Virus record (IMG/VR): IMGVR_UViG_3300022876_000178
Span: 1-37,194 of that record
Length of the DNA stretch: 37,194 nucleotides
Direction: 5' to 3' (one strand)
DNA from: a virus
Lineage: Duplodnaviria; Caudoviricetes
Positions 7,903 to 37,194 of the stretch are shown here, piece by piece (the first letter of the stretch is position 1; each line of letters begins with the position of its first letter). Under the pieces are notes generated by a model. It did not search any database, was not told where the DNA came from, and saw only the letters and a program-made list of their open reading frames with translations. The position numbers were made by a program, and so were the translations under genes.

Positions 7903-7946
7903 CAAGTATTTGAAAGATTATGTTCAGTAGAGAGGGCGGAGATTAA

Positions 7947-8105
7947 ATGGGAAAAGAAGAGTTTGAAAAATTAATATCGGATTTAGATGATCGTGATGCT
8001 GCAAGAGTGCTTGCTTATCTTAGTGGTTATTATTCTAAAAATGAAGAATTTATGAGTGCTGTATTAAGTGCAATTGAGTCAATTAAAAAAACTAAGATTA
8101 ACTGA
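7947..8105 (+). CDS. Small hypothetical protein, 52 aa, not in the ORF track
   Basis: MGKEEFEKLISDLDDRDAARVLAYLSGYYSKNEEFMSAVLSAIESIKKTKIN; GGAG RBS. Confidence 0.65.
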   Translation: MGKEEFEKLISDLDDRDAARVLAYLSGYYSKNEEFMSAVLSAIESIKKTKIN

Positions 8106-8134
8106 ATACTTTGAGGAAAAGGAGCGAAAGAATT

Positions 8135-8326
8135 ATGAGTAATCAAACTTTATGTTGTGATTATTGCGAGAGTACACATTTTGAAATTCATATTCTTGAA
8201 AAGCCTAAACGATTCGCTTTGAATGCAAAAGTCCATGACTTAACACAAGTCAATTCGGATGGACGAGAAGTAGACAATATTTGCTTAGAATGTTTGAAAG
8301 AGCAAATCGAAAATTACGTTATCTAA
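8135..8326 (+). CDS. Small CxxC...CxxC zinc-binding protein
   Basis: CDYC...CLEC; AAGGAG RBS before ATG 8135. Confidence 0.7.
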   Translation: MSNQTLCCDYCESTHFEIHILEKPKRFALNAKVHDLTQVNSDGREVDNICLECLKEQIENYVI

Positions 8327-8437
8327 TTACACAATGTGAGGAAATCATTATTTTGATTGAGAAGTATTAGAATGAAAAATATTGCTGGTGTGGTAAAATA
8401 AATGTATATTGGATAATTTTGTGAAGGAGTATTTATA

Positions 8438-9220
8438 ATGCACGCTACAATTGTTCAAAATGCTTATAGACAAAACGAAGTTCAAGACATTGTTAGATAC
8501 TTGGAGGAATTATGTTCACCTAATGATTCATTTGGATGGGCATCGGCTGGTATTTATTCATTTTGGAATTATGAAACCAGAGAGGTGTTATATATTGGTT
8601 TAGCTGTAGATTTAGCTGATAGATTTAAGCAACATAATGGATTAAAAACCATGGATGCAAATGGTTGTAAATTTGAGAAAATTCAAGAATACTTTACTGT
8701 TAATGAAAAACTTGGATACAGTGTTTTTCTTCAATCATCAAATAGTCAACCTGTAACTCGAAAAAATATTAGTACATGGTTCAAACACGATTTATCAAAA
8801 AATATTAAGGATTTTGCAGATGAACAACCAAAGAGAGACCTTCGTCAAATTGAAGGTATATTGATTGAAGCGTTTAGAATGAAACATGGAAGACTACCAT
8901 TATGGAATAACATGGGTGGTAGTTTGATAGGACAAAGAAATGCAACAGAAGGGAATTATGATATTGTCTTTGATTTTTCTCATCAAAGAAATTCACCACT
9001 TGTTTCTCGTTCAACATTAAAAGAGCTATGTGAAAACGATATGTATGAATTATATGAAAGTGGTTTTTTGCATGGTGTAAGGCAATTAATGTTATATGTT
9101 GGAGTAGGTACTGGAATGACTTTTGATGAAGCATTAAAGTATAGTAGAAAATATGACACTCTAAATATTTATGAAGAAATTATGAAAGAAAATTATTTAC
9201 AAAAAGAATTAATATATTAA
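8438..9220 (+). CDS. GIY-YIG nuclease family protein
   Basis: AGIYSFWNYETREVLYIGLAVDLADRFKQH; later IEGILIE and LWN; AAGGAG RBS. Confidence 0.88.
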   Translation: MHATIVQNAYRQNEVQDIVRYLEELCSPNDSFGWASAGIYSFWNYETREVLYIGLAVDLADRFKQHNGLKTMDANGCKFEKIQEYFTVNEKLGYSVFLQSSNSQPVTRKNISTWFKHDLSKNIKDFADEQPKRDLRQIEGILIEAFRMKHGRLPLWNNMGGSLIGQRNATEGNYDIVFDFSHQRNSPLVSRSTLKELCENDMYELYESGFLHGVRQLMLYVGVGTGMTFDEALKYSRKYDTLNIYEEIMKENYLQKELIY

Positions 9221-9515: not shown

Positions 9516-10070
9516 ATGAACATCGTACAGCCAATACGTGATCCAGAAAAGGTAAATGCAATGCTTAATTACTTAAAAGGTACGAATGAACGAGATTATA
9601 TGTTGTTTTACATTGGAATATCTGCAGGTCTACGTATTTCTGACATGCTTCAACTACAAAAAGAAGATGTTCAATATACTCATGTAGATATAGTTGAGAA
9701 AAAAACTAATAAACGGAAACGATTTAAGTTTCCTCCATATATAAGAAAAGAAGTTCAGAGATATATTCAAGAATTAAAAGAAGGGGAGTATTTATTCAAA
9801 AGTCGGCAAGGAGGCAACAGGCCAATTGATAGATCAACAGCTTACCGTATTTTACGTAAAGCAGCAGAGGTTTGTGGAATCCGTGAAATTGGAACGCATA
9901 CATTACGAAAAACATTTGGGTACCATTTCTATTTAGATTCTAAGGACGTAGCGACATTACAAAATTTATTCAATCATTCAACACCAGAAACAACATTGAT
10001 ATATATAGGCATCAACCAAGATGCTTTAGATAAAGCGATGGATAAATTTAAACCAAGTTGGCTGAAATAG
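9516..10070 (+). CDS. Minimal tyrosine recombinase (catalytic domain only, 184 aa)
   Basis: GLRISD, KKT, HTLRKTF, FNHS and YIG give a complete R-K-HxxR-H-Y catalytic set. Confidence 0.93.
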   Translation: MNIVQPIRDPEKVNAMLNYLKGTNERDYMLFYIGISAGLRISDMLQLQKEDVQYTHVDIVEKKTNKRKRFKFPPYIRKEVQRYIQELKEGEYLFKSRQGGNRPIDRSTAYRILRKAAEVCGIREIGTHTLRKTFGYHFYLDSKDVATLQNLFNHSTPETTLIYIGINQDALDKAMDKFKPSWLK

Positions 10071-10522: not shown

Positions 10523-10930
10523 ATGCTAATCATGGAGAGCTATGCGGATATATTAAAAGTAATCGAAATTATTAAGGCTGAGATTGAAGGTTTACAATTA
10601 GATTTAGATTATTGGTTAGGTAAGCATGATAAGCATTTAGTATTTAGTGAAGGTGCAAGGAAGTATGGGTTAGATGTAGCAACAAAGCGTGTAGACTTTC
10701 TCTATGAGCGTATGGAAAAGCTGGAAGGTCGGTTAAATGCATATCAAGAGATTGAAAAGGAGATTCGAGAGAATGTTGATAAGTTGGAGGGATTAGAATA
10801 TAAAGTAGCCAAACTACGTTTTATTGATGGCATGACATATCAAGAGATTGCAGATGAACTCGGATATTCACATGATCATATTCGTCGAGTAGCTTCTAAA
10901 AGTAATAAAAAAGATGCTGCATTTACTTGA
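10523..10930 (+). CDS. Late transcriptional activator (sigma-70 region 4 HTH; ArpU/RinA-like)
   Basis: VAKLRFIDGMTYQEIADELGYSHDHIRRV; last early gene before packaging. Confidence 0.85.
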   Translation: MLIMESYADILKVIEIIKAEIEGLQLDLDYWLGKHDKHLVFSEGARKYGLDVATKRVDFLYERMEKLEGRLNAYQEIEKEIRENVDKLEGLEYKVAKLRFIDGMTYQEIADELGYSHDHIRRVASKSNKKDAAFT

Positions 10931-10983
10931 ATGCCACAACCATGCCACATTATATATTGACAATATGAAGTACATTCATAAAT
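10931..10983 (+). promoter_or_regulatory. Probable late promoter with activator-binding direct repeat
   Basis: ATGCCACA at 10931 and 10942 (11-bp period), then TTGACA at 10957; -10 weak. Confidence 0.65.
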
Positions 10984-11117
10984 GAAGTAATAGAAAAGAA
11001 CAACCAAATTGAAATGAAGTGCACGGAAATGCACTAAACACAATTCGTTACAAAATAACGTGGTGTAAGCTCTACCACGAGTCGGAAAAGAGCACTCGAC
11101 AATTTACCACAATATTT

Positions 11118-11150
11118 AAGCTTTCATCTTAGGATGGAGGCTTTTTCTTT
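11118..11150 (+). terminator. Intrinsic terminator in the late leader
   Basis: AAGCTTTCATC-ttag-GATGGAGGCTT followed by a T-run. Confidence 0.75.
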
Positions 11151-11296
11151 TGCTTTGAAAACTGCATCAAACAGCCATACAAATAAAAAGGACTGGTTTA
11201 CGGGTGACCAAGTATATTAGGAATATTAGATACGGAGGAGCGCTGGCATGTACTAGTAACCGATAGGGCGGAGTTTGGTGTGGTTTTGATAGCAAA
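11149..11296 (+). ncRNA. Putative multi-stem structured RNA
   Basis: 15-bp closing stem 11158-11172/11273-11287 with three G:U pairs, plus internal hairpins. Confidence 0.5.
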
Positions 11297-11352
11297 AAGT
11301 TATTACATATATTTCATCTTCTGGTTTATGATTGGATTGGGAGGCGGTAATT

Positions 11353-12264
11353 ATGTCAAAAATCAAAATAGTAAAATACAATTTTTTCAGACCAACAATC
11401 AAAACAAATGAAGATGAGGCATTAATAGATCTATCTGGTGTTTTTGAACGTATCCGTAGGCAATATAGAGACGGTGTAGGAATGTATAAAATTATTTATG
11501 AATACAATGGAGAACCAGCTAGATTAGCAGATATCAATTTTGAAACAGAGACAGGTTTTTATCATCTGGTATTTGAACGTTTAAATTATCAAATACCAAG
11601 TCGAACTACTTTGCACGGAGAATCGCAATTAATTGAATTAGAAGATGATGAATATATTGGTATCGACGTTAATCTACTATACGATCCTACAAATCATATA
11701 TTAATGATTCAACGAAATCGAGATTCATTATCTACAACGGGAATTGAAAGTTTTATTAGTACTATTTTAAATAGAGATGTTGAAAATTTAGAAGGTATAT
11801 TTTGTTTAGCCATTGTATCAGATGAAAATATTAGAACTAGAGCTTTAAGACAATCAGCATATAGAAAATTACACTTTAAAGTGATTGGAACTAAAGCTGA
11901 TGATATTATATCGAGATTAACAAGAAATCAAGATGATTTAGGTATTGAAACAGTTGAAGTTATCTTAAGTTCTAAACCAAATAGAAGTTCAGAAATCGAT
12001 GGAACTTTTGCAAGACAATTATTACAAGAGTATAGTGAGGATCCTGAAGTTCAAAAATTGAGAGTGAGGGCAAGGAGCTCAGAAGAAAGTTCCATTGAAG
12101 CAATTGATTTGTTTGATTATAAAATTGAAGCTATATCTGAATTTGAATTTATAGAAAACCGATATTTGAATCCGATTTCTGTCTTTTATAAAATGCAGGA
12201 ATTATATTTAGATGAATATCAATCAATTATCAGGAGGGTGTGTGGAATGGTTGAAAACGTCTAA
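11353..12264 (+). CDS. Moron gene: soluble ~300-aa protein (DUF6731-like by recall)
   Basis: AT-rich non-structural ORF between late activator and terS; LLYDPTNHILMIQRNRDSLS motif. Confidence 0.75.
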   Translation: MSKIKIVKYNFFRPTIKTNEDEALIDLSGVFERIRRQYRDGVGMYKIIYEYNGEPARLADINFETETGFYHLVFERLNYQIPSRTTLHGESQLIELEDDEYIGIDVNLLYDPTNHILMIQRNRDSLSTTGIESFISTILNRDVENLEGIFCLAIVSDENIRTRALRQSAYRKLHFKVIGTKADDIISRLTRNQDDLGIETVEVILSSKPNRSSEIDGTFARQLLQEYSEDPEVQKLRVRARSSEESSIEAIDLFDYKIEAISEFEFIENRYLNPISVFYKMQELYLDEYQSIIRRVCGMVENV

Positions 12265-12739
12265 TGTTTTATTATTTGTATTTATAGGCGTTTCAGTTAT
12301 AATCTCATGTATCGTTTATTTTTATTGTCCATTTTATAAATTAACCGGATTTGATAAAGGATTAGAGGGCGTTTTATTATTTTCTAGTATTAGCTTAGGT
12401 TTTTATGGTGCATGCCTTAGTGTTATTGCATCAATATTTCATACAAAAATTGTTCAAACTATAATGAAGGAAAAAGATGAAAAAAAAGAATTTTCAATTG
12501 TTGTTTTTAGCACATTGATTACTGGTTTTATTACAGTATTTTCAACTATTTCTTACAGAGTTATTCTAGCAAGTAATGTTTTATTAGAACAACTGGATTT
12601 AGTAAATGCAATATGGATTTTCTTTGTCGTACTATTTGTTAGCATGAATGTATTGTTTATACTAATATCCTTTTTAATCTTTTTAAATAACAATGAAGGA
12701 AAAACGGAAAAAGTAATTGTGCCAACATTAAAAAATTGA
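12242..12739 (+). CDS. Moron gene: four-TM membrane protein
   Basis: Four hydrophobic segments; overlaps the upstream gene end; start at 12242 or 12251. Confidence 0.8.
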   Translation: MEWLKTSNVLLFVFIGVSVIISCIVYFYCPFYKLTGFDKGLEGVLLFSSISLGFYGACLSVIASIFHTKIVQTIMKEKDEKKEFSIVVFSTLITGFITVFSTISYRVILASNVLLEQLDLVNAIWIFFVVLFVSMNVLFILISFLIFLNNNEGKTEKVIVPTLKN

Positions 12740-32043: not shown

Positions 32044-33255
32044 GTGGCTCAATATGGAACAATAATTACAAACATCGGACTTGCTCAAATCGCCAATGCC
32101 CAAATCACACAGACGAAGGTTGGACTAGAGTACATTGCGCTTGGCGATGGAAATGGTGCTCATTATGTACCAAAACAAAACCAAACAGCTTTAGTACACG
32201 AAGTTTGGAGAGGTCCAATTGCTGAACTTTCAAGCGATCCAACTAACAGCAATCGTATTATTATTGATGCTGTGATCCCCGTAACAGCAGGAGGATTTAC
32301 GATTCGTGAGATTGGTATTTTTGACGATAAAAACAACTTAATAGCCGTTGGACAATATCCAGAGAAATATAAACCTCAGTTAAGCGAAGGCGTGTCAGAG
32401 GAGACATTAATTCATTTTGTTATTGAAACCAATAATGCTGATGTCGTAAAACTAACGATTGATCCTACAGTTATTATTGCTTCACGTAATTATGTTGATG
32501 GAAAAGTGGCTCAGGTGCAAACTGCACTTACTGAACATTCGGGACAAATTGCAACTACTGAAAAGTTAGGGCATATCAAGCCTGATGGTACAACTATTAA
32601 AGTAGACCCAATCACAGGTGTAGCATCTGCTTCAGAAGCAGGATATCAATTAACTGAAAGTAATGGGTACGCTAAAGATATTACTGGAATAGACTTGAAT
32701 ACAGTAATCGAGAGTGGCTTTTATAAATCTGTTGACGGTGTTACAGCTAACAATTTCCCGAAAGATTTTATCGGTGGATATAACTTAAGCATCGAAAATA
32801 TTCAGACAGCTAATAATTGGACATATCAAACATTAGTTTCATCTACTTTTGCAGGAACTACTATTTGGAAAAGAGCTAGAGTATCAGGGAATTGGAATAC
32901 TTGGAAGGAAATATTCCCCAACAAAGGGGATAGTGGAAATGTAAATTTAACTCCAGGTACTGGTTGGAAAGTGGATTTACTCACCTCATCATTAAGTTTC
33001 CGAGAGGTAAATGGTATTGTTTTTGTTAAAGCTTATAATATTGTACCTCAAACAGGATATGTAAACGTAATTACTACACTACCATTAGGATACAGACCTC
33101 TTAACAGAACAATTGTTTTTTCATACGACGCTGGCGGCGTGCCTTATCAAGCAAAGATACTAAATACAGGTCAAATTACATTATACTCTGCTCAAAATAC
33201 AACTCTAGTAAACAAGGCTGTAGACTTTGAGTTTTCTTTCAGTATTTTTGAATAA
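32044..33255 (+). CDS. Tail fibre: tail-collar N-terminus plus variable receptor-binding C-terminus
   Basis: IALGDGNG...GGFTIREIGIFD...YKP...ASRNYVD; DLNTVIESGFY...WNTWKEI; TLPLGYRP. Confidence 0.92.
   Translation: MAQYGTIITNIGLAQIANAQITQTKVGLEYIALGDGNGAHYVPKQNQTALVHEVWRGPIAELSSDPTNSNRIIIDAVIPVTAGGFTIREIGIFDDKNNLIAVGQYPEKYKPQLSEGVSEETLIHFVIETNNADVVKLTIDPTVIIASRNYVDGKVAQVQTALTEHSGQIATTEKLGHIKPDGTTIKVDPITGVASASEAGYQLTESNGYAKDITGIDLNTVIESGFYKSVDGVTANNFPKDFIGGYNLSIENIQTANNWTYQTLVSSTFAGTTIWKRARVSGNWNTWKEIFPNKGDSGNVNLTPGTGWKVDLLTSSLSFREVNGIVFVKAYNIVPQTGYVNVITTLPLGYRPLNRTIVFSYDAGGVPYQAKILNTGQITLYSAQNTTLVNKAVDFEFSFSIFE
32527..32550 (+). repeat. Left copy of the inverted repeat bracketing the fibre tip module
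   Basis: CTTACTGAACATTCGGGACAAATT; 18/24 identical to the reverse complement of 33761-33784. Confidence 0.6.
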
Positions 33256-33277
33256 TTAAAAGGTTGGTGAATTATTA

Positions 33278-33592
33278 ATGGAGGAATCGAGTAATGATAA
33301 GTTAATAGGCTATGCTATTGATGATAATGGCTTCATTATAGACACAGTATTAGTTGGAGGGAATTTCGATTACATTTATTCGAATGTAATAACAGTTCCA
33401 TATAATAGCGAATATCATCGCAATCGTTGGGATGGCGAAAAATGGATTGAAGGCGAAACTGAGGAAGAAAAAACTGAACGTGAATCGCAACAATTACTAG
33501 AGTCATTAAAACCTTCTCCTGACGAAATTGCTGATGCTGAATTAGAAATTAAAATGTTAACCATGCTTACAGATTTGGGGGTTATACAATGA
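33278..33592 (+). CDS. Putative tail fibre assembly chaperone
   Basis: RWDGEKWIEG motif; directly after the fibre gene. Confidence 0.7.
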   Translation: MEESSNDKLIGYAIDDNGFIIDTVLVGGNFDYIYSNVITVPYNSEYHRNRWDGEKWIEGETEEEKTERESQQLLESLKPSPDEIADAELEIKMLTMLTDLGVIQ

Positions 33593-33759
33593 CAGATGTA
33601 CATCTTGAAGGATTGACATTAGTGCAAAAACGTTTGGTAAAAGCTTATGCTACAAGTGTCATGGGTGAAGTAAGAGCTGTTGAAGATGTGAAGCCAGTAG
33701 AGTTACAACCCTATGTAAAATTAGAAATAGCAGAGCGAGAAATAACTGCTCTGACTTGA
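33589..33759 (+). CDS. Small post-fibre protein (CD1375/XkdX-position), 56 aa, not in the ORF track
   Basis: MTDVHLEGLTLVQKRLVKAYATSVMGEVRAVEDVKPVELQPYVKLEIAEREITALT; ATGA overlap. Confidence 0.75.
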   Translation: MTDVHLEGLTLVQKRLVKAYATSVMGEVRAVEDVKPVELQPYVKLEIAEREITALT

Positions 33760-33760
33760 T

Positions 33761-33784
33761 AATCGTTCCATATTGTTCAGTAAG
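33761..33784 (-). repeat. Right copy of the inverted repeat bracketing the fibre tip module
   Basis: Minus strand CTTACTGAACAATATGGAACGATT. Confidence 0.6.
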
Positions 33785-33812
33785 CACTCTCAATTCGAGG
33801 GTGCTTTTATTA
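33782..33812 (+). terminator. Intrinsic terminator before the lysis genes
   Basis: AAGCACTCTC-aattc-GAGGGTGCTT followed by a T-run. Confidence 0.75.
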
Positions 33813-33858: not shown

Positions 33859-34107
33859 ATGGATATTGTATCCACAGTAACAACAGCAAGTCATATAGCA
33901 AACTCACAAGTTGTATGGTCAATCTTGTGTATTTGCTTAGTCGTATATGTATTTTGGAATTCCAACAAACGCGAAGAACGACTAATGAAAAATTTAGAGA
34001 CGTTGACAGAAGCACAAGGTGAACAAGCAAATGCAATGCGTGAAATCAGCAAAAGCTTAACATCACTTGAAGGACGTATGGACCGTATGGAAAAACACAT
34101 CTTTTAG
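33859..34107 (+). CDS. BhlA/UviB-family holin-like protein
   Basis: One TM, then NKREERL and a coiled coil. Confidence 0.82.
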   Translation: MDIVSTVTTASHIANSQVVWSILCICLVVYVFWNSNKREERLMKNLETLTEAQGEQANAMREISKSLTSLEGRMDRMEKHIF

Positions 34108-34119
34108 GAGGAAATATAA

Positions 34120-34380
34120 ATGAAAATTAACTGGAAAGTACGTTTAAAACACAAGCCGTTTTTGGTTGGAGCATTTGCATTGTTGCTACTAATTATCCAA
34201 CAAATCGGGGCGTTATTCGGCATTGATGCAACAATTTACAACGAGCGAGTTACAGAGTTATTTAACACTGTGCTCGCTTTTTTAGTGCTGATTGGTGTGG
34301 TTGTTGATCCAACTACTCCAGGTACTAATGATAGTGACAGAGCAATGAGTTATGAACGAAAGGGTGATAATAATGACTAA
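34120..34380 (+). CDS. Phage holin (phiLC3 type)
   Basis: MKINWKVRLKHKPF...GVVVDPTTPGTNDS. Confidence 0.92.
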   Translation: MKINWKVRLKHKPFLVGAFALLLLIIQQIGALFGIDATIYNERVTELFNTVLAFLVLIGVVVDPTTPGTNDSDRAMSYERKGDNND

Positions 34381-35280: not shown

Positions 35281-35469
35281 TTATGATCTAACGACCAAAC
35301 CTACTCTTCCTTCAGTAGAGGAATTGGATTTAATACCAGTAATTTTATTAATTTCCTCAACTGAGGAACCTTTGGATGCAAAATGTTTATTAATTAAAGA
35401 ATACATTTCTCTAAGTTGTTCTGGATTCACTTTAGAAAGTTGTCTATTTAAAGCGCTTTGTACTGTCAT
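35281..35469 (-). CDS. Small hypothetical protein, second gene of the reverse moron
   Basis: AAGGGGGAG RBS inside the upstream gene; followed by a terminator. Confidence 0.7.
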   Translation of the reverse strand: MTVQSALNRQLSKVNPEQLREMYSLINKHFASKGSSVEEINKITGIKSNSSTEGRVGLVVRS

Positions 35470-36703
35470 ATAAAACTCCCCCTTCTATGTAACTATTTGA
35501 ACTTGTATAAACTAATCCATGGGCGTTCAATAGTGAAATAAACTTTTCTCGAACAACTTGTTCAATGGATGTTCCTTTTTTATAAAGGATATCTTTTGGG
35601 TTTATAACTATTAGATAGAGTTTTGTTTCTCCTTTGCTTGTATTAGCTTTGAAAAAAGAATAAATTCTACCTTCTTTATGTGGATTATTGCCTGTATAAG
35701 AAAAACTAAACTTATCATCTACATTAAGTATATCAGAAATTACAATTGAACAAAATAGTCCAGTTTTATCATTATTGTTTAACCGGTTTAATTCCAAATC
35801 ATTTTCATTTTGTTTAGAATCGTCATTTTCTACCACCTCAGTTGTAGCAGCAACTTCATTATATGAAGTTTGTTCTTTTACCTTTGAAGGTGAAGAAAGG
35901 AGAATATTGTTGATTTCGTTTGCGAACTCATCTAATTTAGTGTATAAAATGTTGACAAACCCAATTGAGGCAGGAGAGTAATCAGACTTTACTACTTCAG
36001 ACTCCAATTTTTCCAAAGAAGTTAGTACCTGGGTTATGTCCTCTAGTGTTTCGATTCGTTCTAATCGCTTAATAGCATTTATTAAAATCTCTTTTGAATC
36101 TCTGTTAAATTCATAGTACTCTTGAAGAACTGCATTTAGATAAGTCCCTTCGCTTACACAACCAAATTCGTATTCAATTTTAATACACTCTGTATTTACT
36201 TTTGATAATAAGTGGTAATTATAAACTTGTACACCAACAATCCCAGAAGTATACCGAGTGAAATCTTCGAAAACTTTTTTGTGTTTTTTATTTATTTCAA
36301 AACTTTTTAGTTCATCATATGAGTACATTAAATCTTTAGTATCGCTATTTAATTTTGTAATTAAATCATTTGTTTTTTTAGCTAAGCGATCATATGAAAT
36401 TGTAGAAATGAGACAAAGTGTGAAAATTATTGCTACAAAAAGTTTTAAATCTATAGTGCTACCATCTCCTACTATAAAAGAAACAATTGTTCCTAAAAAA
36501 GCTATTGCAGAAATTAAATATCCTATAGTAACGGGCACATAATATCTTTTTTTGATTAAATATGGTGAATTTAAACGTGAAAAATATAAAATATCAAGAA
36601 TGTACTGGATTAGTAAATTAAATCCACCGTTGTTCAACTTAGCAAGTTTAAATGTAAGGATTGCTGTAACAATTATTGAAGATAACACTAAAAATATAGT
36701 CAT
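35444..36703 (-). CDS. Membrane protein (about 3 TM) with large unknown soluble domain
   Basis: 419-aa AT-rich ORF; GGGGG RBS; TATAAT at 36742-36737. Confidence 0.85.
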   Translation of the reverse strand: MTIFLVLSSIIVTAILTFKLAKLNNGGFNLLIQYILDILYFSRLNSPYLIKKRYYVPVTIGYLISAIAFLGTIVSFIVGDGSTIDLKLFVAIIFTLCLISTISYDRLAKKTNDLITKLNSDTKDLMYSYDELKSFEINKKHKKVFEDFTRYTSGIVGVQVYNYHLLSKVNTECIKIEYEFGCVSEGTYLNAVLQEYYEFNRDSKEILINAIKRLERIETLEDITQVLTSLEKLESEVVKSDYSPASIGFVNILYTKLDEFANEINNILLSSPSKVKEQTSYNEVAATTEVVENDDSKQNENDLELNRLNNNDKTGLFCSIVISDILNVDDKFSFSYTGNNPHKEGRIYSFFKANTSKGETKLYLIVINPKDILYKKGTSIEQVVREKFISLLNAHGLVYTSSNSYIEGGVLYDSTKRFK

Positions 36704-36874: not shown

Positions 36875-36923
36875 TTGTCAAAATACAAACATCTGTTCTA
36901 TTATGTATACAAACAAGTGTTCT
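36875..36923 (+). promoter_or_regulatory. SigA promoter with two LexA (Cheo)-like boxes
   Basis: TTGTCA(36875)-18-TATTAT; CAAACATCTGTTCT (36886) and CAAACAAGTGTTCT (36910) resemble CGAAC-N4-GTTCG. Confidence 0.75.
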
Positions 36924-36969
36924 TGTATAGATTATAAATGAGGAACATTTCATGTATTAGGAGGAAACA

Positions 36970-37194
36970 TTGATGAGAGAACAACTGGTTAAAGCTATGC
37001 AGTGTAATCAATTAGTAAACATGATGTATGTATCTAAAAATGGGTCTGTAACAAAAAGGCGAGTAAAAATCATTAAAATCGTTGGTGATTCATTTCAAGC
37101 ATTCTGTTTCATGAGACAAACAAAGCGTACATTTTTAATCAGAAATATACTCGCTGTTACTCCTGTTATTCGAAAAGAGTCTGATGTTGTATGA
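36970..37194 (+). CDS. Small stand-alone WYL/YolD-like protein
   Basis: MMYVSKNGSVTKRRVKI...FQAFCFMRQTKRTFLIRNI. Confidence 0.75.
   Translation: MMREQLVKAMQCNQLVNMMYVSKNGSVTKRRVKIIKIVGDSFQAFCFMRQTKRTFLIRNILAVTPVIRKESDVV

What the first reader, a model, noticed from the sequence alone, without database searches (positions are those of the whole stretch)
32527..33784. Tail-fibre receptor-binding module bracketed by an inverted pair of recombination-like sites
Seen: CTTACTGAACATTCGGGACAAATT lies in frame inside the fibre gene (codons LTEHSGQI, about residue 162). That is just past the conserved tail-collar domain. An inverted copy (11/11 core, 18/24 overall) starts 2 bp after the stop of the last fibre-associated ORF. 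The pair encloses exactly the fibre tip, the chaperone and the small ORF. Inversion would give a stop after about 41 codons, so this is not a Gin/Cin-type shufflon. Inference: it is an exchangeable host-range cassette, analogous to pdif modules, possibly served by the 184-aa tyrosine recombinase. Caveat: 11-bp inverted matches occur by chance in 37 kb, so the argument rests on the position at both module boundaries.
Basis: partly seen in the sequence, partly recalled or inferred. Interest (0 to 1): 0.8.

Follow-up and report, generated by a model that had tools for sequence, protein, structure and literature searches.

The report
Phage tail-tip swap sites in Lysinibacillus
The two short DNA words that bracket this phage's tail-fibre tip are real, recur at gene-swap joints in prophages and chromosomes across the genus Lysinibacillus, and likely serve an as yet unidentified site-specific recombinase that trades host-range tips and accessory genes between unrelated phages.

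Summary
Confirmed and extended. Alone, the 18/24 inverted match is chance-level (37 such pairs in the window). Relatives show it is real: both copies are 12-6-12 dyads with one strong arm (TACTGMACAWTW). The core occurs in 43 of 49 genus genomes (123 matches, 7 control). The in-gene copy is fixed at synonymous positions (third bases 27/27 versus 9.5 expected) and joins at least 5 tip-module classes to 10 N-terminal clusters. One public contig replaces the whole segment between the two sites; the window's tip sits, 93-95% identical, on two unrelated fibre N-termini. The same arm, with other spacers, bounds accessory genes in prophage early regions and chromosomal arrays. It works like Acinetobacter dif modules (like-with-like exchange, no inversion) but is not dif (arms 5-6/11). 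The 184-aa recombinase is not supported: 5 of 13 near-complete related prophage records lack any tyrosine recombinase. Against: a second breakpoint cluster lies 65-80 bp past the in-gene site, its spacer varies, and no enzyme or recombination was shown. Earlier scan notes describe similar Lysinibacillus junction-site systems on other DNA; no paper was found.

The parts
32044..33255 (+). Tail-fibre gene, 403 aa; N-terminal tail-collar domain (residues 1-148), variable C-terminal part
   Evidence: PF12571 E 2e-53; PHROG tail-fibre hits
32529..32540 (+). In-gene site (class F), strong arm TACTGAACATTC, in frame (L-T-E-H-S)
   Evidence: Arm with <=1 mismatch, same frame, in 23 of 30 fibre loci; third-base fixation
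32541..32546 (+). 6-base spacer GGGACA of the in-gene site; likely crossover region
   Evidence: Arm variants travel with the N-terminal flank; contig joints at 32546-32549
32547..32558 (+). Weak second arm (5/12 to the inverted strong arm), start of the IATTEKLGH module
   Evidence: Class mean 5.79/12, peak at a 6-base spacer, shuffled 4.21
32547..32640 (+). About 30-codon linker (IATTEKLGHIKPDG...) shared by one module class; second breakpoint cluster at 32609-32625
   Evidence: BLAST ends, contig joints, P0002 versus window
32989..33252 (+). Beta-rich C-terminal head, likely receptor-binding
   Evidence: Low-confidence model (pLDDT 51); best folds are lactococcal and Listeria phage RBP heads, E 0.004-0.04
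33278..33592 (+). 104-aa ORF, chaperone-like by position only
   Evidence: No Pfam, NCBIfam or PHROG hit; function inferred
33589..33759 (+). 56-aa ORF ending the fibre module; its stop lies inside the weak arm of the downstream site
   Evidence: site within 6 bases of the stop in 16 of 30 loci
33753..33782 (-). Downstream site (class D): weak arm 33753-33764 (7/12), spacer 33765-33770, strong arm 33771-33782
   Evidence: contig joints at 33759-33760 and loose ends at 33783
33782..33811 (+). Terminator-like hairpin with T run directly after the site
   Evidence: Read from the sequence; not run through a tool
7912..7929 (-). Class Q copy (arm + TCTTTC) in front of a small early-region gene
   Evidence: 1 mismatch to the arm
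8100..8117 (+). Degenerate class P copy (arm + TGAGGA) at a stop codon
   Evidence: 3 mismatches, class spacer exact; weaker call
8325..8342 (+). Degenerate class P copy at the next stop codon
   Evidence: 3 mismatches, class spacer exact; weaker call
9516..10070 (+). 184-aa catalytic-domain-only tyrosine recombinase; not shown to belong to the system
   Evidence: PF00589, R/HxxR/H/Y visible in the alignment; co-occurrence negative

Best explanation
The two words are members of a Lysinibacillus-wide family of 12-6-12 DNA dyads that mark module joints in prophages, and they are likely crossover sites of a tyrosine recombinase, probably supplied from outside the phage, that would swap the fibre tip and accessory genes between phage genomes by two like-with-like crossovers. 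Shown: the dyad anatomy; four spacer classes with fixed places and orientations (Q before and P after early accessory genes, F inside the fibre gene, D after the fibre module); DNA-level conservation; exchange points inside or at the sites; natural swap products. Inferred: a crossover F x F between two resident or co-infecting phage DNAs makes a cointegrate, a crossover D x D resolves it and leaves a new tip, chaperone and cargo in frame on the old shaft. Because F and D are inverted and differ in spacer, the module would neither excise nor invert. Homologous recombination in a shared 90-base linker adds finer tip swaps. The enzyme is unknown; a chromosomal Xer-like gene is the likelier source than the 184-aa phage gene.
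For: Core in 43 of 49 genus genomes, 123 matches versus 7 control. Second arm peaks at a 6-base spacer in all four classes (6.98, 5.79, 6.51, 6.39 of 12; shuffled maxima 5.1-5.5); 7 compact 30-base dyads. Junctions picked by peptide only: 24 of 26 within 1 mismatch; third bases 23/27, 27/27, 27/27, 24/27 against 8.7, 9.5, 17.4, 3.9 expected, across different amino acids; TAHL/TAQL variants follow the A/C degeneracy of intergenic arms. 10 N-side x 5 C-side clusters in 13 combinations. 63 downstream-type sites fall into 48 left and 38 right flank clusters. BLAST ends on sites: 125 of 926 versus 15.7 shifted (max 31); 108 of 274 arms versus 71 of 851 armless stop-codon windows. Crossover maps into the spacer for P and F. 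Run X7: one contig follows the window to 32562, has 1542 other bases, resumes at 33759; X11 joint 32546 to 33759; X4 joint at 32546. Same cargo ends at the site in prophage and non-prophage contexts (L081/L098, L094/L108). The 18 shared bases are below the 23-34 bases cited as minimal for Red-beta or RecA (PMC3945230, passage).
Against: No enzyme identified and no recombination shown. F spacers vary (10 variants in 33 sites), awkward for spacer-matched exchange. Four of the closest relatives break at 32609-32624, not at F, as do 4 contig joints; the differences between the window and P0002 sit in the linker, so the best tip swaps need not have used the site. Alternation is incomplete (96 alternating, 47 same; dyad self-pairs inflate the first number). 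Second arms are weak (5/12 and 7/12 in the window). Sequences are related by descent, so counts are not independent; one flanking codon also reaches 24/27. 7 of 30 fibre loci lacked a good in-gene copy (several truncated or mis-picked) and homologues L006, L008, L009, L011 lack it. P spacers resemble a ribosome-binding site.
Confidence: 0.62

Rival explanations
1. The sites are conserved boundary (linker) sequences used by phage single-strand annealing proteins; modules swap by short-homology recombination and the words spread by that process, without a dedicated recombinase.
For: Breakpoints also cluster in longer shared stretches (32609-32625, 33441-33524, 34101-34167); no cognate recombinase found; relaxed homologous exchange among temperate phages is documented (PMC3945230, abstract start and passages).
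Against: One 12-base arm recurs in both orientations with four different spacers and a second arm at exactly 6 bases; homology alone does not predict that. Shared length is 18 bases, under the cited minimum. Flank identity drops to background within a base or two of the site.
Confidence: 0.2
2. The arm is the operator of a regulator (host or phage, perhaps of recombinase fold); genes carry it as a control element and breakpoints near it are a by-product.
For: Q copies sit before ribosome-binding sites, P copies after stops, D before a terminator; many cassette genes look sporulation-related (names recalled from sequence, not tested).
Against: A codon-locked copy at the exact domain joint of unrelated fibre genes has no evident regulatory use; it is shared by unrelated prophages with tyrosine or serine integrases.
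Confidence: 0.1
3. F and D are the left and right junctions of a circle that integrates into an 'empty' strong-strong dyad (integron-like insertion and excision) and not two independent exchange sites.
For: Strong arms lie outside and weak arms inside the module; compact strong-strong dyads and 39-45-base P-Q composites exist; forward spacers GGGACA and GTTCCA share G...CA.
Against: Spacers match only 3/6; no joined empty form among the joints of 8 runs (contigs drop rare forms); D spacers are nearly fixed (44 of 47) while F spacers vary.
Confidence: 0.07
4. Chance match plus a protein-constrained junction peptide.
For: 37 comparable inverted pairs in the window.
Confidence: 0.01

Closest known systems
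dif modules bounded by pdif sites on Acinetobacter Rep_3/OrfX plasmids (PMC13141974; abstract and passages read)
   Same: Asymmetric two-arm sites with a 6-base spacer; modules between inverted sites; single modules replaced, by the cointegrate-and-resolve model; no recombinase gene in the module; confined mostly to one genus.
   Different: Arms are not the host dif arms (5-6 of 11); one arm type plus a degenerate copy, not XerC and XerD arms; carried by prophages and chromosomes; one site is in frame inside a structural gene; spacers act as fixed positional classes.
Rin shufflon of Bifidobacterium prophages (PMC6109161; abstract and passages read), and Gin/Cin/Min
   Same: A short site at the constant/variable joint of a receptor-binding gene and a second after the gene; tyrosine recombinase family proposed.
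   Different: No spare tips and no adjacent invertase here; inversion gives a stop; in Rin the two sites of the full gene are direct, here inverted; change is between genomes, not within one.
Mosaicism by Rad52-like phage recombinases; invertase-driven exchange of side tail fibres (PMC3945230; passages read)
   Same: Tips move between unrelated temperate phages; the linker breakpoints fit this route.
   Different: A fixed dyad at the joints, also used for non-fibre cargo, is not part of that model.
Integrons (from my own knowledge; search listings only)
   Same: Co-oriented arrays of one- or two-gene accessory cassettes; a Cass2/GyrI-like cargo gene.
   Different: No integron integrase (184-aa protein 49.6 bits against cut-off 265); sites are 30-45 bases with short arms.

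Membership tests
pdif / dif modules | XerC and XerD arms resembling the host dif | tested here: not met
   Host dif found once in each of 5 genomes; arm matches 5/11 and 6/11
pdif / dif modules | Two arms around a 6-base spacer | tested here: met
   Peak at 6 in all four classes
pdif / dif modules | Modules between inverted asymmetric sites, alternating | tested here: inconclusive
   F and D inverted in the 23 loci with both; tandem > < > < in L150; overall 96 alternating, 47 same
pdif / dif modules | Replaced modules keep near-identical spacers on each side | tested here: inconclusive
   D: 44 of 47 TGGAAC; F: 10 variants in 33
pdif / dif modules | Recombined by host XerC/XerD | not testable with these tools
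   Needs genetics or biochemistry
Tail-fibre shufflon or invertible switch (Rin, Min, Gin, Cin) | Alternative tip read in frame after inversion | tested here: not met
   Stop after 202 codons; no spare tip in the window
Tail-fibre shufflon or invertible switch (Rin, Min, Gin, Cin) | Invertase next to the locus | tested here: not met
   Only recombinase-like ORF seen lies 22 kb away
Tail-fibre shufflon or invertible switch (Rin, Min, Gin, Cin) | Inverted forms in sequence data | tested here: inconclusive
   No strand-changing joint listed for 8 runs, but contigs drop rare forms
Integron | IntI integrase beside attI | tested here: not met
   TIGR02249 far under cut-off; no recombinase ORF recognised beside the 8 arrays mapped
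Integron | attC hairpin with R and L boxes | not tested
   No folding or attC model run

The most novel reading that the evidence does not exclude
A chromosomal Xer-like recombinase of Lysinibacillus runs an addressed exchange network: one arm, several 6-base spacers as positional addresses, so unrelated prophages and the chromosome trade receptor-binding tips in frame, anti-defence and detox cargo, and sporulation genes slot by slot. The common fibre-junction peptide T-E/A-H/Q-L would then be the translation of a recombination site, and other Bacillota genera would have their own versions.
Probability: 0.35. Interest if true: 0.88.

Novelty: new variant of a known kind. Interest (0 to 1): 0.74.

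Why it matters
How temperate phages swap modules precisely at gene and domain borders is a long-standing question; most evidence favours chance or relaxed homologous recombination. Here a defined 30-base site sits at the joints, including one in frame in a fibre gene, and can be tested with a two-plasmid assay. If real, host range and accessory content of Lysinibacillus phages are shuffled by one site-specific system, the first dif-module-like system I found described for phage structural genes in a Gram-positive genus, and the site marks swappable modules for annotation.

Tried and rejected
Host dif identity: rejected. 184-aa recombinase: frames of 180-190 aa in 4 of 42 related records; 5 of 13 records >=90% complete have no PF00589 match, 3 of those 5 have a serine recombinase; classed arms within 1.5 kb of 4 of 30 homologue loci; in 27 of 49 genus genomes, core counts 2.96 with versus 1.95 without, p 0.21. 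Action in trans is not excluded. 280-aa XerA-like recombinase: sits beside a sister dyad with different arms, in 24 of 49 genomes, p 0.053; 9 of 12 genomes with neither query match still have cores. Chromosomal 321-aa Xer-like gene: in 63 of 121 family genomes, no arms within its 18-kb locus; outside the genus the motif is only about 2-fold over control (86 vs 45 with the gene, 26 vs 19 without), inconclusive. Wider range: TAQLAE/TAHLAD-type pattern gave 7 viral stretches, in-frame in fibre-like genes in several but with no downstream arm found; full P pattern gave 0; annotated phages gave only holin hits. 15 of 49 viral hits lay in unrelated genes and were dropped as chance; metagenome hits were used only where the filters passed them, and chance hits contaminate the class D baseline. 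PDB sequence search of the tip: nothing. Paper searches found no description of the motif or system; the library lacks most subscription papers, and no supplements were read.

Full report
Observation. The window is a 37-kb phage record; its fibre relatives are in Lysinibacillus (87% to a record titled L. contaminans; named hits in L. fusiformis and L. capsici). On its own the match is ordinary: 37 such inverted pairs in the window, 4 within 2 kb.

The downstream copy is a conserved site. An exact 18-base pattern gave 49 stretches in viral contigs; I judged 34 to be Lysinibacillus-type prophage tail regions (some duplicates) and dropped 15 as chance. In them it follows the last fibre-module gene or variable cargo and usually precedes a terminator-like hairpin; in 16 of 30 fibre loci it is within 6 bases of the small ORF's stop. 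A 17-base pattern hit 19 of 49 genus genomes with 0 control hits, and 23 of 301 family genomes, 19 of them the same genus genomes. The 14-base core hit 43 of 49 genomes, 123 matches against 7 controls, often in clusters 0.2-2.5 kb apart. 63 distinct sites fell into 48 left and 38 right flank clusters and 61 combinations. Cargo next to it includes HxlR/RidA-like, GyrI-like, Tad2-like, trypsin-like, acyltransferase and Mrr-N genes (8 of 20 tested had a Pfam hit); the acyltransferase and HxlR units end at the site both in prophages and elsewhere in chromosomes.

Anatomy. Twenty regions chosen for having sites held 59 cores within 1 mismatch against 1 control. The unit is a strong arm TACTGMACAWTW, a 6-base spacer and a weaker inverted arm. 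Similarity to the inverted arm peaks at a 6-base spacer in each class: D 6.98, F 5.79, P 6.51, Q 6.39 of 12, shuffled means 4.2-4.7 (47, 33, 59, 46 sites); for F the peak is shallow (5.45 at 5). Seven compact 30-base dyads and several 39-45-base P-Q composites occur. Spacers sort by place: Q (TCTTTC family) before and P (TGAGGA family) after accessory genes of the prophage early region and of chromosomal arrays, P and Q in opposite orientation within an array; F (GGnnnA) in the fibre gene; D (TGGAAC, 44 of 47) after it. The window itself has a Q copy at 7912 and two degenerate P copies at 8100 and 8325. The arms match the host dif arms at only 5-6 of 11. The strict P pattern hit 19 of 201 order-level genomes, all from the genus set.

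The in-gene copy is constrained as DNA. 23 of 30 fibre loci upstream of a D site have the arm within 1 mismatch in the same frame and orientation. Picking junctions only by the peptide that follows, 24 of 26 are within 1 mismatch. In a stricter set of 27, third bases across the arm are T 23 (8.7 expected from codon usage), T 27 (9.5), A 27 (17.4), T or A 27, G 24 (3.9), spread over different amino acids; flanking codons mostly reach 9-20, one 24. The sequences are related, so these are not independent draws. Among homologues picked by the N-terminal domain, 7 of 19 junction rows had an exact arm, 6 had 1-2 mismatches (more distant records), 6 had none.

Exchange at the sites. Ten N-side and five C-side clusters occur in 13 combinations. 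Against the window, L001 and L019 keep the left flank of F (0.87, 0.78) and lose the right (0.32, 0.45); L199, L145, L038 and L153 do the reverse; at D, four loci keep only the left flank and L177 only the right. Arm variants travel with the arm-side flank and identity falls inside the spacer for P and F. Over 63 loci, 125 of 926 BLAST ends lie on sites (shifted control 15.7, max 31), 108 of 274 arms carry an end versus 71 of 851 armless stop-codon windows. In public contigs, X7 replaces 32563-33758 by 1542 other bases with close flanks on both sides, X11 joins 32546 to 33759, X4 leaves at 32546, and loose ends fall at 32547, 32549, 33759 and 33783; no inversion joint was listed in 8 runs. The window's tip is 95% and 93% identical on two unrelated N-termini (P0002, P0003), and a second tip is found on three. 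A low-confidence model of the tip is closest to lactococcal and Listeria phage receptor-binding heads.

Against. L002-L005 break at 32609-32624, four contig joints leave at 32609 or 32625 and five rejoin at 33441-33525, and the window differs from P0002 mainly in the linker after the site. So within one module class tips also swap in a 90-base shared linker, probably by homologous recombination; only swaps between module classes need the site. F spacers vary. Alternation is partial.

Enzyme. The 184-aa protein has a full catalytic set by alignment but is not tied to the sites. A 280-aa XerA-like gene lies beside a sister 12-6-12 dyad with different arms and is in 24 of 49 genomes. A 321-aa Xer-like chromosomal gene is conserved but has no arms near it. 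Since 9 of 12 genomes without either mobile candidate still hold cores, a core chromosomal enzyme is my inference; relic sites could also explain this.

Mechanism and comparison. The best fit is the cointegrate-and-resolve route described for dif modules (PMC13141974, passages): F x F then D x D between two phage DNAs. It works like that system but is not a member (arms not dif). It is not a Rin/Gin-type switch (PMC6109161, passages). Eight searches found no paper on this motif or system; searches served background (listings only, apart from the paper read). The iLund4u preprint (passages) notes fibre swaps and cargo in one P2-like hotspot but names no such site in the passages seen. Earlier scan notes (unchecked, sequences hidden) report similar Lysinibacillus junction systems on other DNA; none overlapped this window by sequence.

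Verdict. Real feature, larger than reported; new variant of a known kind; interest 0.74.

Noticed in passing
window 7912-8342: Three more copies of the arm (one Q, two degenerate P) at the junctions of two small early-region ORFs; these ORFs may be cassettes.
   Followed up: partly
L271:11140-11170, L272:8287-8317, L287:142-172: A sister family of 12-6-12 dyads (spacer TGGCCC/GGGCCA, arms TAYTCMACAAT) beside a 280-aa XerA-like recombinase and accessory gene rows.
   Followed up: partly
L150:5084-9522; L145:1922-7660: Tandem fibre modules, each with its own in-gene site; L150 alternates > < > <.
   Followed up: partly
L116, L120, L124, L133, L135: Dense arrays of site-bounded one-gene units, many resembling spore-coat or sporulation genes (names recalled, not tested), often next to prophage remnants.
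   Followed up: partly
window 36883-36928: Two AAAC-N4-GTTC words 24 bases apart, like LexA boxes (consensus recalled), upstream of the WYL/YolD-like ORF at 36970.
   Followed up: no
window 35444-36703 (-), 8438-9220, 11332-12739: Accessory genes: a 419-aa ORF with no family hit after the lysin, a weak GIY-YIG hit, and DUF6731 with a 175-aa neighbour; possible defence cargo.
   Followed up: no
L269:5224-6099 and 10727-11692: Two extra Xer-like genes 4.6 kb apart near the chromosome terminus; the longer is conserved in 63 of 121 family genomes and has no known site.
   Followed up: partly
L278:1-3579: Three adjacent secreted-protein ORFs that look like components of a tripartite haemolysin BL-type enterotoxin (resemblance recalled, not tested) in a genus genome.
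   Followed up: no
L248, L249, L252, L253 (position 5001): The arm-like word lies in frame (TAHL/TAQL) in fibre-like genes of other Bacillota phages, with no matching downstream arm found.
   Followed up: partly
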